A stretch of DNA of 64,000 nt, taken from assembly GCA_964406475.1 (NCBI GenBank), contig CAYORS010000001.1, positions 35,881 to 99,880 on the forward strand. The letters are read 5' to 3'. The notes beneath the pieces were generated by a model. That model worked only from the letters and a program-made list of their open reading frames with translations. It did not search any database and was not told where the DNA came from. Made by a program: the position numbers and the translations under genes. This DNA comes from an uncultured Candidatus Saccharibacteria bacterium. Lineage in GTDB: Bacteria; Patescibacteriota; Minisyncoccia; Phycocordibacterales; CAIRYW01. Below are positions 48,290 through 48,756 of this stretch, one piece after another. How positions within the stretch are numbered: the first letter of the stretch is position 1; each line of letters starts with the position of its first letter.

Positions 48290-48756
48290 CCCAGGAGTCG
48301 AACTTCTGGGGTGGGGGGACAGTAGGATGTCGATCATTACATGACCAGTACGCCTTTCGGCTAAAATTTTCTTGAAATCAATTTAAGGCTCAAAAGTTTT
48401 TCGATTCGCAAATACAATTAATAGGATCGCGAGTACGCTTATCGACCCTTACAGGGTGGGGTATATTGGTGCACTTTGTGGTCACGAATATTTTGCTTAT
48501 TGTCTCTTGCTTGGGCGCAGGGTGTGGTCACACATAAATTTCTACTGAAATTTTGCGATTCAATTAGTAGGACCGCGAGTACGCTTATCGCCCTCGACTA
48601 AATTCTGCTACCCGCAGAATTTGTCTGGGCACCAGCTCGTCTGTTTCTGAAGCTTCAGAAACATGACTTCGCTGTTCGATTCCTACACGCAGGCAAAATT
48701 GTTTGCCTGCTTGGGCGCACCAAAAATAAAACACCCGTTTGAGGGTGTTTTATTTT
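48290..48756. repeat. tRNA-Lys-associated structured repeat element, locus B
   Basis: TTACA-loop hairpins at 48333-48347 and 48444-48457. Two gcgagtacgcttatcg units 146 nt apart (48429-48444, 48575-48590). Module 48628-48662 about 94% identical to 387-421. Inverted T-arm copy gttcgattcctacac (48674-48688). Hairpin gcaggcaaa/tttgcctgc (48689-48710). Inverted acceptor copy ttgggcgcacca (48711-48722). 25-bp perfect palindrome 48712-48767 overlapping the tRNA-Lys 3' end. Confidence 0.5.

What the first reader, a model, noticed from the sequence alone, without database searches (positions are those of the whole stretch)
48326..48457. TTACA-loop hairpin motif with compensatory stem changes in four copies
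The four copies are 496-510 gacca-TTACA-tggtc, 48333-48347 gatca-TTACA-tgacc, 48444-48457 gaccc-TTACA-gggt(g) and, on the minus strand of locus C, 53351-53365 gaccc-TTACA-gggtc. Flanks are conserved: (g)taggaNNatcga before the hairpin and agtacNcc after it. Stem base pairs change in a pairing-preserving way (ca/tg versus cc/gg). That is the signature of a selected RNA or DNA hairpin, not random similarity. A single-strand hairpin with a TTAC-containing loop recalls IS200/IS605-type subterminal hairpins. No transposase gene is present, so this remains speculative.
Basis: partly seen in the sequence, partly recalled or inferred. Interest (0 to 1): 0.7.

Follow-up and report, generated by a model that had tools for sequence, protein, structure and literature searches.

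The report
tRNA-flanking hairpin repeat of CPR bacteria
The TTACA hairpin is the conserved core of a roughly 110-170 base non-coding hairpin module, absent from Rfam and from the papers I could search, that sits just after tRNA and tmRNA genes in many CPR (Patescibacteria) genomes and is bounded by copies of that gene's own 3' end.

Summary
All four hairpins are at the stated coordinates, against 0.45 pattern matches expected by chance. A covariance model finds five modules in the window.

The same core, ATCG-stem-TTACA-stem-CAGTAC, occurs in at least 119 loci of public genomes. Every record title that names a lineage names a CPR/Patescibacteria one.

Each module has a TTACA hairpin, an AGTAC junction, a long hairpin and an optional mini-hairpin. 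The closing stem consists of a direct and an inverted copy of the 3' end (T loop to acceptor) of the neighbouring tRNA or tmRNA gene. The module always lies downstream of that gene, with its TTACA strand opposite to it.

Covariation is strong but almost purely Watson-Crick and strand-symmetric. No own promoter, conserved partner gene, Rfam family or paper was found. No IS200/IS605 gene is in the window, and the anatomy does not fit that family.

Best reading (about 0.45): a DNA-level palindromic repeat element that duplicates the tRNA 3' end at the T loop, with an unidentified enzyme. Main rival (about 0.3): a structured RNA co-transcribed with the tRNA. The mechanism is not settled.

The parts
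53251..53395 (-). Module C, the best-preserved copy. Read on the - strand: 5' arm GTAGAA, mini-hairpin GCGAGTACGC, ATC, TTACA hairpin (53365-53351), AGTAC, long hairpin CCCGATTGG...CAATCGGG, T-loop-like CTTGATTCCTAC, AC, hairpin GAAAGTC-ctctt-GACTTTC, T, TGGGAGCACCA.
   Evidence: Model R1 hit 53388-53284, 98.5 bits, E = 6e-25. Sequence. Orthologous module in L121 with a compensatory stem change.
485..620 (+). Module A1: GTAGGAGA, ATC, TTACA hairpin (496-510), AGTAC, long hairpin ACCTTTTGG...CTCAAAAGGT, TTTCGATTCTCCCAC, hairpin GAAAGTGC-cctg-CACTTTC, TTACTCACA.
   Evidence: R1 hit 493-581, 44.8 bits. The 5' GTAGGAGAATCGA is complementary to 3' TCGATTCTCCCAC (repeat I11). Sequence.
340..482 (+). 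Module A0, a degenerate variant ('type 2') upstream of A1. It shares GGCACCAGCTCG and the GTTTCTGAA-RC-TTCAGAAAC hairpin with B3, and ends in GTTCGATTCTCCCAC, a hairpin and TAGTCCCACA. Its borders are approximate.
   Evidence: Shared motifs at 387-398 and 402-421. TTCGATTCTCCCAC at 435-448 is identical to 576-589. Not recovered by model R1.
48312..48411 (+). Module B1, a decayed copy: GTAGGATGTCGA, TTACA hairpin (48333-48347, with an A.C mismatch), AGTAC, long hairpin, TTTTTCGATTCGCA.
   Evidence: R1 hit, 36.3 bits, E = 8.5e-8. Sequence.
48421..48519 (+). Module B2, truncated and decayed: ATAGGATC, GCGAGTACGC, TTATC, TTACA hairpin (48444-48457). The AGTAC junction is lost. It ends in the remnant TGCTTGGGCGCA.
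   Evidence: R1 hit 48421-48503, 40.4 bits. The 36-nt repeat 48412-48447 matches 48558-48593 at 89%, and TGCTTGGGCGCA at 48508-48519 equals 48708-48719.
48567..48722 (+). Module B3, a 'type 2' variant. It has the same frame (GTAGGACC, GCGAGTACGC, TTATCG ... GTTCGATTCCTAC, AC, hairpin GCAGGCA...TGCCTGC, T, TGGGCGCACCA), but the TTACA hairpin is replaced by a longer extension (CCCTCGACTAAA-hairpin-TTTGTCTGGG).
   Evidence: R1 hit 48567-48686, 36.4 bits, aligned end to end with insertions. Other type-2 copies in L032, L045 and L112.
53203..53261 (.). Perfect 29 + 29 nt palindrome. It contains the 3' end of tRNA-Arg (TGGGAGCACCA), a two-way terminator-like hairpin, and the mirror-image 3' arm of module C.
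   Evidence: Repeat I1, 100% complementary.
48712..48767 (.). Perfect 25 + 25 nt palindrome joining the 3' arm of B3 to the 3' end of the tRNA at 48757-48832. A further 13-nt inverted repeat, GTTCGATTCCTAC (48674-48686) with 48768-48780, copies the T loop and T stem.
   Evidence: Repeats I1 and I2.
610..671 (.). 29 + 29 nt palindrome (97% complementary) joining the 3' arm of A1 to the 3' end of tRNA-Gly. GTTCGATTCTCCC at 434-446 and 576-587 copies the T arm at 672-684.
   Evidence: Repeats I1, I7 and I12.
663..734 (-). tRNA-Gly(GCC), the gene whose 3' end is copied into modules A0 and A1.
   Evidence: ARAGORN; Rfam tRNA, 67.9 bits.
48757..48832 (-). The tRNA whose 3' end is copied into B3. ARAGORN calls it 'Stop(tta)', but it reads as tRNA-Lys(UUU).
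   Evidence: The anticodon loop reads CTTTTAA. The ortholog in L121 is called Lys(ttt).
53139..53213 (+). tRNA-Arg(GCG), the gene whose 3' end is copied into module C.

Best explanation
The TTACA hairpin is the most conserved part of a modular, non-coding, hairpin-rich repeat element specific to CPR/Patescibacteria. The element is tied to the 3' end of tRNA and tmRNA genes.

Shown:
- Each module is a conserved core: a TTACA-loop hairpin, an AGTAC junction, a long imperfect hairpin with conserved bulges and loop, and an optional GCGAGTACGC mini-hairpin.
- The core is closed by two arms. The 5' arm is a direct DNA repeat of the last roughly 15-25 bp of the neighbouring gene, from the TCGA of the T loop to the acceptor end and sometimes a few trailer bases. 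The 3' arm is an inverted copy of the same segment.
- Modules lie immediately downstream of the gene in one fixed orientation, singly or in tandem. Some copies are visibly decayed.

Inferred:
- The element lives at the DNA level. It arises or spreads by a site-specific event at the T-loop TCGA that duplicates the gene's 3' end, so the tRNA stays intact. The known parallel is the direct repeats left by integrases that use the T-loop part of tRNA and tmRNA genes.
- Its hairpins function when folded in single-stranded DNA, as with integron attC sites, REP elements or the folded attP of phage CTX. They would be recognition structures for a trans-acting recombinase or nuclease that I could not identify.
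- The arms are kept identical to the neighbouring gene by templated correction within the palindromes.
For: Distribution and specificity:
- At least 119 loci, all in CPR-named or unnamed MAGs. None in 2.9 million viral contigs.
- Model R1 finds 131 modules in 100 of those loci. It finds only 4 in 577 kb of loci chosen through an unrelated protein, and those are in the three closest relatives.

Link to the tRNA:
- 82 of 124 copies have a tRNA on the opposite strand within 400 nt downstream, and 13 more have one just upstream.
- The element also flanks tmRNA, with arms matching the tmRNA T arm and acceptor.

Arms are copies of the neighbour:
- Exact 13-25 nt identity of the 5' arm to the antisense 3' end of the adjacent tRNA in about half of the units, including 1-10 trailer bases.
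- Each arm matches the neighbour's T stem 5/5 in about 50% of units, against 3% for random tRNAs.
- ATCG/CGAT changes to CTTG/CAAG where the neighbour's T loop is TTCAAG.
- The ortholog in L121 follows its own tRNA (GTTGG/CCAAC against GTAGG/CCTAC in the window).

DNA-like pairing:
- 96.6% of cells paired, 17 of 25 pairs with changes on both sides, 0 of 500 shuffles as high.
- Non-Watson-Crick cells are rare and strand-symmetric: G.T 4 against A.C 5, 92 against 69, and 1 to 2 wobbles in 372 hairpin cells.
- tRNAs of the same loci, by a different count (pairs in minimum-free-energy folds), show 9.2% G.U on the sense strand against 4.9% on the antisense strand.

No independent gene:
- Sigma-70-like promoters upstream are at background level (8%, against 7% at random positions and 36% upstream of tRNAs).
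- The strand of the upstream gene is random, 51 same against 59 opposite.
- No conserved neighbouring protein family; the largest cluster covers 14 of 119 loci and is housekeeping.
- In the window and in L120, modules lie between strong two-way terminator-like hairpins.

Turnover:
- Three modules follow tRNA-Lys in the window, and none in the relative L121.
- B1, B2 and A0 are decayed.
- Contigs of near-identical strains break at the repeat.
Against: - No mobilising enzyme was found, and no protein co-occurs with the modules. The window holds only a Xer-like tyrosine recombinase (4451-5365) and a serine-recombinase 'Recombinase' domain fragment (61639-62145), neither adjacent to a module.
- No clean pair of empty and filled sites was obtained, so insertion has not been demonstrated.
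- A hopping element cannot carry an inverted arm specific to each target. That arm needs an extra step (fold-back copying or palindrome correction), which is pure inference.
- The core is strongly conserved between orthologous loci whose flanks no longer align, and bulges and loops are conserved. This equally fits a functional RNA.
- 9 of 84 modules lie between two co-oriented tRNAs, and only 15 of 84 have a canonical terminator between tRNA and module, so many are probably transcribed.
- The tRNA-sense strand folds more stably in 89 of 115 units.
- The loci were retrieved by the motif itself, which inflates the apparent conservation of the core.
Confidence: 0.45

Rival explanations
1. A structured RNA made on the tRNA strand (the TGTAA strand), transcribed as the 3' trailer or inter-tRNA spacer of the tRNA precursor. 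Its closing stem imitates the acceptor/T-stem minihelix of the upstream tRNA. It could serve as an RNase P/3'-end processing signal, like plant mitochondrial t-elements or mascRNA, or as a tRNA-like decoy or carrier RNA.
For: - Fixed orientation and position right after the tRNA.
- 9 of 84 modules lie between two co-oriented tRNAs, and only 15 of 84 have a canonical terminator between tRNA and module.
- The tRNA-sense strand folds more stably in 89 of 115 units. It is the G-rich strand and forms more G.U pairs in minimum-free-energy folds, 470 against 344.
- On this strand the topology is tRNA-like: the T-stem 3' strand is contiguous with the acceptor 3' strand, and the extra hairpin sits on the 5' side.
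- Perfect 7/7 acceptor-like pairing in 12 of 49 well-parsed units, against 3% in controls.
- The distal copy of the tRNA 3' end is followed by CC(A) in 12 of 34 units, against 3 of 34 for the real tRNA genes.
- Loops, bulges and the orthologous core are conserved.
Against: - Pairing is Watson-Crick only, with no G.U excess over A.C on either strand, unlike the tRNAs next door.
- In the window and in L120, modules are cut off from the tRNA by strong terminator-like hairpins with T runs.
- The acceptor-like stem is absent in most copies, including all those in the window.
- On this strand the T-loop sequence is antisense (AAUCGAA).
- No Rfam or tRNA model matches.
- Decayed tandem copies are common.
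Confidence: 0.3
2. An antisense or primer-binding-site-like element. On the TTACA strand the 5' arm is complementary to the last roughly 20-25 nt of the neighbouring mature tRNA. It would pair with that tRNA as a sponge or regulator, or as a primer-binding site of a retroelement-like process. The arm is otherwise masked by the module's own 3' arm.
For: - Exact complementarity of 13-25 nt to the tRNA 3' end, ending in the T loop, as retroviral primer-binding sites do (the parallel is from general knowledge).
- A complement of CCA (TGG) that the tRNA gene itself does not encode, in 8 of 34 units.
Against: - No promoter for the TTACA strand.
- No reverse transcriptase nearby.
- In several loci the repeat includes non-mature trailer bases.
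- The CCA signal is modest: 8 against 3 for CCA, 12 against 3 for CC.
Confidence: 0.08
3. One reading: ends or a miniature derivative (PATE) of an IS200/IS605-family element, moved by a TnpA encoded elsewhere.
For: - A TTAC-containing hairpin conserved in the loop and variable in the stem.
- Watson-Crick-only pairing that fits single-stranded DNA.
- TAC recurs three times per module: in the mini-hairpin loop, the TTACA loop and the AGTAC junction.
Against: - No Y1_Tnp or OrfB_IS605 among 59 window ORFs or among conserved neighbours in 119 loci.
- The ends are not constant; they copy the neighbouring tRNA.
- There are long direct repeats of the target.
- There is a single short 5-bp hairpin instead of paired subterminal hairpins with flanking cleavage sites.
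Confidence: 0.05
4. Scars of classical integrative elements (phage or ICE) that used the tRNA T-loop attachment site and were later deleted, leaving att-proximal DNA.
For: - The direct repeat runs from the T loop to the 3' end, and tmRNA genes are used as well. This is the classical integrase footprint (the parallel is from general knowledge).
- Tandem arrays occur.
Against: - The same roughly 110-nt core has the same borders in more than 130 copies from many lineages.
- Hairpin stems covary.
- No integrase or cargo remnants are present.
- There are no hits on viral contigs.
Confidence: 0.07

Closest known systems
Direct repeats (attL/attR) left by tyrosine integrases that integrate at the T-loop part of tRNA and tmRNA genes
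   Same: The duplicated segment runs from the T loop to the 3' end of the gene, sometimes with a few trailer bases. The gene stays intact. tmRNA genes are used as well as tRNA genes. Tandem arrays occur.
   Different: The DNA between the repeats is only about 100-170 bp and non-coding. No integrase is present. There is an extra inverted copy of the same segment, and the interior is a conserved multi-hairpin core.
REP/BIME extragenic palindromes and their RAYT transposase (enterobacteria, pseudomonads)
   Same: Short non-coding hairpin repeats between genes, often beside terminators. They are present in many copies without an adjacent gene and are thought to be handled in trans as single-stranded DNA hairpins.
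   Different: The CPR modules are tied to tRNA and tmRNA 3' ends, have target-derived arms and contain several different hairpins. There is no conserved GTAG head outside genomes whose T stem happens to read CCTAC. No RAYT gene was seen.
Folded single-stranded recombination sites: integron attC and the CTX phage attP(+) hairpin
   Same: Structure rather than stem sequence is conserved, and pairing is Watson-Crick. The stem formed by the two arms reproduces in a hairpin the duplex sequence of the chromosomal target. Bulged elements on one strand could set polarity.
   Different: No R/L boxes (GTTRRRY), no intI/attI, no cassette ORFs and no dif-like site. Any use of a recombinase is untested.
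tRNA-like processing signals: plant mitochondrial t-elements and the MALAT1 mascRNA
   Same: An imitation of the acceptor and T arm placed in a transcript where RNase P or RNase Z could cut. The T-loop sequence TTCGATT and sometimes NCCA are present.
   Different: Most copies lack the acceptor-like stem. The wobble pattern is not RNA-like. Rfam's tRNA model does not match. Many copies lie behind terminators.
IS200/IS605 elements and their miniature PATE derivatives
   Same: A hairpin with TTAC. A single-stranded DNA hairpin is plausible.
   Different: See the membership test: no TnpA or TnpB, no paired subterminal hairpins, variable ends, and long target repeats.

Membership tests
IS200/IS605 (including PATE derivatives) | A Y1 HUH transposase (TnpA) and/or TnpB encoded in the element or available in the genome | tested here: not met
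   Pfam scans of 59 window ORFs found no PF01797 or PF01385. No such family appears among the conserved neighbours in 119 loci. The rest of the genome could not be searched.
IS200/IS605 (including PATE derivatives) | Subterminal imperfect hairpins at both ends, with cleavage sites such as TTAC outside the hairpin | tested here: not met
   There is one 5-bp TTACA hairpin per module, and TTAC is inside the loop.
IS200/IS605 (including PATE derivatives) | Constant ends in all copies and no target-site duplication | tested here: not met
   The ends copy the adjacent tRNA and differ between copies. The modules are flanked by 13-25 nt direct repeats.
tRNA (Rfam RF00005) or other Rfam 15 families | A match to the covariance model at the gathering score | tested here: not met
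   Only the four canonical tRNAs match in the window, and only tRNAs in 18 other loci. Nothing relevant appears at E up to 10 in 48250-48760. ARAGORN finds no tRNA or tmRNA in the modules.
Integrase att sites in tRNA/tmRNA genes (T-loop part) | A direct repeat of the gene segment from the T loop to the 3' end, flanking the inserted DNA | tested here: met
   (window, L018, L034, L070, L071, L121; tmRNA in L091).
Integrase att sites in tRNA/tmRNA genes (T-loop part) | An integrase gene and cargo lie between the repeats | tested here: not met
   The interval is about 100-200 bp and non-coding. No integrase is enriched nearby.
REP/BIME with RAYT | A short imperfect palindrome with a conserved GTAG head | tested here: not met
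   GTAGGA in the window comes from the CCTAC T stem. In other genomes the same position reads CGGGGA, GCAGGA, CAGAGA and so on.
REP/BIME with RAYT | A RAYT gene in the genome, itself flanked by REPs | not testable with these tools
   None in the window. Whole genomes could not be scanned.
MITE | Constant terminal inverted repeats and a short target-site duplication | tested here: not met
   The inverted arms are target-derived and vary with the neighbouring tRNA. Only the TCGA-containing junctions are constant.
Integron attC | R''/L'' and L'/R' boxes (GTTRRRY) next to intI/attI, with cassette ORFs | tested here: not met
   The junctions read ATCGA and TTCGAT. No ORF lies in a module. No intI-like gene is adjacent: the only tyrosine recombinase in the window, 4451-5365, is 3.6 kb from the first locus.
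tRNA-like processing elements (t-element, mascRNA type) | An acceptor/T-arm minihelix that RNase P or RNase Z cuts | tested here: inconclusive
   A T-like stem with at least 5 of 6 pairs in about 55% of parsed units. Acceptor-like pairing of 7/7 in 12 of 49. Cleavage cannot be tested here.

The most novel reading that the evidence does not exclude
The modules are a new class of element or RNA templated by its neighbouring gene. Each copy rewrites its own closing stem from the 3' end of the tRNA or tmRNA next to it, occasionally including a CCA that the gene does not encode. That would make it either a tRNA-specific acceptor-minihelix mimic (a non-decoding, possibly chargeable tRNA-like RNA, or an RNase P processing handle), or a mobile element that uses mature tRNA or the folded T-arm DNA as primer or guide for insertion. 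Neither mode is described for bacteria.
Probability: 0.25. Interest if true: 0.9.

Novelty: new variant of a known kind. Interest (0 to 1): 0.68.

Why it matters
CPR/Patescibacteria have genomes of about 1 Mb with little spare DNA, yet this window carries five to six modules in 64 kb, and the core is the same in many CPR lineages. A conserved element that copies the 3' end of the adjacent tRNA or tmRNA points to one of two things. One is an unknown site-specific DNA process at the T loop, which would imply an unidentified enzyme. The other is an unknown layer of tRNA-linked RNA biology in a phylum whose tRNA genes are already unusual (group I introns, PMC13011429).

There are practical consequences too. 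The modules break short-read assemblies at tRNA loci. They are a ready phylogenetic marker for CPR contigs. They are not in Rfam, so a family could be built from the alignments made here.

Tried and rejected
- **Chance, or one duplicated segment.** Rejected by the shuffle control and by at least 119 independent loci.
- **Undetected, intron-bearing, split or permuted tRNA genes.** No 5' acceptor, D arm or anticodon arm can be placed. The hairpin loop has 5 nt with covarying closing pairs. Rfam and ARAGORN are negative.
- **tmRNA, Y-RNA-like RNA, T-box, known ribozymes, group I intron fragments.** No Rfam match. The modules are too short for group I introns. The Patescibacteria tRNA-intron paper (PMC13011429) describes insertions at position 35/36, not this element.
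- **An independent gene on the TTACA strand, or a 3'-UTR element of the upstream gene.** No promoter signal, and the upstream gene strand is random.
- **Phage attP.** No hits in viral contigs.
- **A conserved partner protein.** Neighbour clustering gave only housekeeping families such as IF-2, RbfA, PilM, RuvA and MurE.
- **Newest copy lies next to the tRNA.** Only six tandem pairs were available, split 3 to 3; uninformative.
- **Enrichment of TTCGATT T loops among tRNAs that have a module** (85% against 23%). Largely an artefact of my search pattern, which required ATCG. Hits from model R1 show that the junction follows other T-loop variants.
- **Close-strain comparison through identical proteins.** It returned only short contigs that end at the repeat.
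- **Literature searches.** The four term searches found no description of the element.
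Full report
**1. The observation.**
The four hairpins are at the reported coordinates. A degenerate pattern found the four exact copies plus one weak match, against 0.45 expected; none of 100 shuffles reached five.

All copies lie in three intergenic regions, each next to a tRNA gene. These are tRNA-Gly(GCC) 663-734(-) and tRNA-Arg(UCG) 770-844(-); a tRNA at 48757-48832(-); and tRNA-Arg(GCG) 53139-53213(+). 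The TTACA strand is always opposite to the tRNA strand.

Three details need correction. The 48333 copy has an A.C mismatch. The flank 'taggaNNatcga' is interrupted in two copies by a 14-nt mini-hairpin around GCGAGTACGC. The 48444 copy lacks 'agtac'.

**2. The hairpin belongs to a larger module.**
Repeat analysis and reading of the loci show units of about 110-170 nt. On the TTACA strand a unit runs in this order:
- a 5' arm (for example GTAGGA);
- an optional mini-hairpin, CC-GCGAGTACGC-TT;
- ATC;
- the hairpin G-NNNN-TTACA-NNNN-C;
- the junction AGTAC;
- a long imperfect hairpin (ACCTTTTGG...CTCAAAAGGT or CCCGATTGG...CAATCGGG);
- YTTCGATTC followed by a 3' arm complementary to the 5' arm;
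- often AC(G), a variable hairpin, (C)T, and a 7-nt acceptor-like string with N-CCA or N-CAA.

The 3' arm together with a two-way terminator-like hairpin forms perfect palindromes of 25-29 nt per arm with the 3' end of the facing tRNA. They are at 610-638/643-671, 48712-48736/48743-48767 and 53203-53231/53233-53261.

A covariance model built from 21 units finds five modules in the window:
- C, 53284-53388(-), 98.5 bits;
- A1, 493-581(+), 44.8 bits;
- B2, 48421-48503(+), 40.4 bits;
- B3, 48567-48686(+), 36.4 bits;
- B1, 48312-48411(+), 36.3 bits.

B3, and a sixth degenerate unit A0 (about 340-482), are a 'type 2' variant. In it the TTACA hairpin is replaced by a longer extension. B1, B2 and A0 are visibly decayed.

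**3. Distribution.**
Every title that names a lineage names Patescibacteria/CPR: Paceibacterota, Nomura-, Kaiser-, Zambryski- and Taylorbacteria, and Saccharibacteria. About 17 hits would be expected by chance from my own estimate of the pattern's information content, so nearly all are real, as their flanks confirm.

Nothing was found in 2.9 million viral contigs. Rfam 15 has no family for the element. The four term searches for the element found no description of it; the nearest paper concerns group I introns in Patescibacteria tRNAs.

The model finds 131 modules in 100 of the loci. In 577 kb of metagenomic loci chosen through an unrelated protein (an RluA homologue), it finds only four, all in the three closest relatives.

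The window itself is ordinary chromosome. It carries PolA, PNPase, PBP1, the CCA-adding enzyme, rnpA-yidC-jag / dnaA-dnaN, RuvABC, a type IV pilus ATPase and T4SS-like genes.

**4. Link to tRNA and tmRNA genes.**
Of 124 copies, 82 have a tRNA on the opposite strand within 400 nt downstream, typically 100-165 nt after CAGTAC. Another 13 have one just upstream, so those modules sit between two co-oriented tRNAs. Thirteen isotypes are involved.

In L091 the partner is a tmRNA gene, and the arms match the tmRNA T arm and acceptor.

No protein family is consistently nearby. The largest neighbour clusters cover at most 14 of 119 loci and are IF-2, RbfA, PilM, RuvA, MurE and the like.

**5. The arms are copies of the neighbour's 3' end.**
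In about half of the units, the 5' arm is an exact 13-25 nt copy of the antisense 3' end of the adjacent tRNA. The copy starts 0-10 nt into the trailer and ends at GGA (before the mini-hairpin) or at ATCGA in the T loop (examples).

Each arm matches the neighbour's T stem 5/5 in about 50% of units, against 3% for random tRNAs.

The 'conserved' ATCG/CGAT junction is itself the neighbour's T loop. Where the tRNA has TTCAAG, the module has CTTG...CAAG.

At the orthologous tRNA-Arg(GCG) locus of a relative with 69% RluA identity (L121), the flanks no longer align. The core, however, is about 90% identical. The TTACA stem has changed from GACCC/GGGTC to GATCC/GGATC. The arms follow that genome's own tRNA, GTTGG/CCAAC instead of GTAGG/CCTAC.

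The same relative has no module after tRNA-Lys, where the window has three, although the downstream gene also differs. In a second relative (L120), the tRNA-plus-module block is inverted relative to rpsT.

**6. Structure and strand.**
The proposed helices are strongly supported on the 21-sequence alignment: 96.6% of cells paired against 79% in shuffles, 17 of 25 pairs with changes on both sides, and 0 of 500 shuffles as high. The 21 sequences were pre-selected for a good closing stem, which biases that one helix.

The unusual point is the kind of pairing. Non-Watson-Crick cells are few and strand-symmetric:
- G.T 4 against A.C 5 in the 21-sequence alignment;
- G.T 92 against A.C 69 in the 131-sequence alignment;
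- in the TTACA stem, one or two wobbles in 372 unconstrained cells.

For comparison, tRNAs from the same loci show 9.2% G.U pairs on the sense strand and 4.9% on the antisense strand. That control counts pairs in minimum-free-energy folds, a different measure from the alignment counts above.

This is what is expected of hairpins selected or maintained in DNA, or on both strands, and not of a typical RNA.

Other observations favour the tRNA-sense strand if there is an RNA at all:
- that strand folds more stably in 89 of 115 units;
- it is the G-rich strand, with more G.U pairs in minimum-free-energy folds;
- 9 of 84 modules lie between co-oriented tRNAs, and only 15 of 84 have a canonical terminator between tRNA and module;
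- the distal direct copy of the tRNA 3' end is followed by CC(A) in 12 of 34 units, against 3 of 34 for the real genes.

An independent gene on the TTACA strand is unlikely. Promoter-like sites upstream are at background level, 8% against 7% at random positions and 36% upstream of tRNAs. The upstream gene is on either strand at random. In the window and in L120, the modules sit between strong terminator-like hairpins on both sides.

**7. Interpretation.**
Shown: this is a CPR-wide family of hairpin-rich modules, tied to tRNA and tmRNA 3' ends. The core is conserved, and the arms are direct and inverted copies of the neighbour's T-loop-to-3'-end segment.

Inferred, with confidence about 0.45: a DNA-level element that arises or spreads by a site-specific event at the T-loop TCGA. 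The event duplicates the gene's 3' end, which is the footprint classical integrases leave at tRNA and tmRNA T loops. The hairpins would act in folded single-stranded DNA as recognition structures for an unidentified trans-acting enzyme. The arms would be kept identical to the gene by palindrome-templated correction.

The inverted arm and the missing enzyme are the weak points of this reading.

The main rival, about 0.3, is a structured RNA co-transcribed with the tRNA. Its closing stem would imitate the tRNA's acceptor/T-stem minihelix, as a processing handle or a tRNA mimic.

Three minor rivals remain: a primer-binding-site-like antisense element, an IS200/IS605 derivative, and integrase scars. 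The IS200/IS605 idea fails every defining feature that could be tested.

**8. Verdict.**
It is not IS200/IS605. I found no record of it in Rfam 15 or in the held literature. I file it as a new variant of the broad class of interspersed palindromic repeat elements. There remains a substantial chance, about 0.25, that it is something categorically new: an element or RNA templated by its neighbouring tRNA.

Noticed in passing
window 48757-48832 (-): ARAGORN calls this tRNA 'Stop, anticodon tta', but the anticodon loop reads CTTTTAA, the classic tRNA-Lys(UUU) loop. The orthologous gene in L121 (8035-8109) is called Lys(ttt). This is most likely a one-base register error, not a suppressor tRNA.
   Followed up: partly
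window 610-671, 48712-48767, 53203-53261: The 3' ends of three tRNA genes, including encoded CCA in two of them, are embedded in perfect or near-perfect 25-29 nt palindromes centred on two-way terminator-like hairpins. Each palindrome has a different sequence.
   Followed up: yes
window 31804-36310: This looks like the replication-origin region: jag/R3H (31804-32262 -), yidC (32299-33009 -), rnpA (33053-33373 -), then dnaA (33569-35008 +) and dnaN (35210-36310 +). The module loci lie on both sides of it. tRNA-Lys at 48.8 kb would be head-on to replication.
   Followed up: no
window 4451-5365 (+) and 61639-62145 (+): A Xer-like tyrosine recombinase (Phage_integrase plus SAM-like domain), and a 168-aa ORF with only the 'Recombinase' domain (PF07508) of large serine recombinases, probably a fragment. 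Neither is adjacent to a module. They are the only recombinase-like genes seen in the window.
   Followed up: no
window 24744-30396 and 41842-43599: A T4SS-like cluster (PrgI family, TraG/VirB4-like ATPase, T4SS pilin) and a type II/IV secretion ATPase (PilB-like), among many ORFs with no Pfam match, including a 903-aa ORF at 21144-23855.
   Followed up: no
window 307-316 and 48300-48311: G-rich tracts (GGGGGGGGG and GGGGTGGGGGG) lie at the tRNA-distal end of both module arrays. At 48278-48299 there is also a T-arm-like remnant, CCCAGGAGTCGAACTTCTGGGG.
   Followed up: no
L120 1-420 compared with window 52788-53395 and L121 2955-3152: In the closest relative (RluA 72% identical), the block of tRNA plus module is inverted relative to rpsT. 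The order there is rpsT, terminator, module, terminator, then a convergent tRNA. The window and L121 have rpsT, tRNA, terminator, then a convergent module.
   Followed up: partly
34 loci with an intact distal copy of the tRNA 3' end (for example L015, L017, L021, L057, L071, L093, L095, L109): The distal direct copy of the tRNA 3' end is followed by CCA in 8 of 34 units, and by CC in 12 of 34. The adjacent tRNA genes themselves mostly have CAA, with CCA in 3 of 34. This hints at a link to mature tRNA or to a CCA-ended RNA, but the numbers are small.
   Followed up: partly
window 742-2385 (+): The mechanical ORF of the CCA-adding enzyme begins at a TTG at 742 and overlaps tRNA-Arg (770-844, opposite strand). 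The true start is probably further downstream. A tRNA-maturation gene thus sits directly beside a tRNA operon that carries modules.
   Followed up: no
L200 1-275 and L201 (contigs of near-identical strains): Short-read contigs carrying the identical neighbouring protein end exactly at the repeated GCGAGTACGCTTATCG segment of module B3 or inside the tRNA. The modules therefore break assemblies. One SNP falls in the terminator stem.
   Followed up: yes
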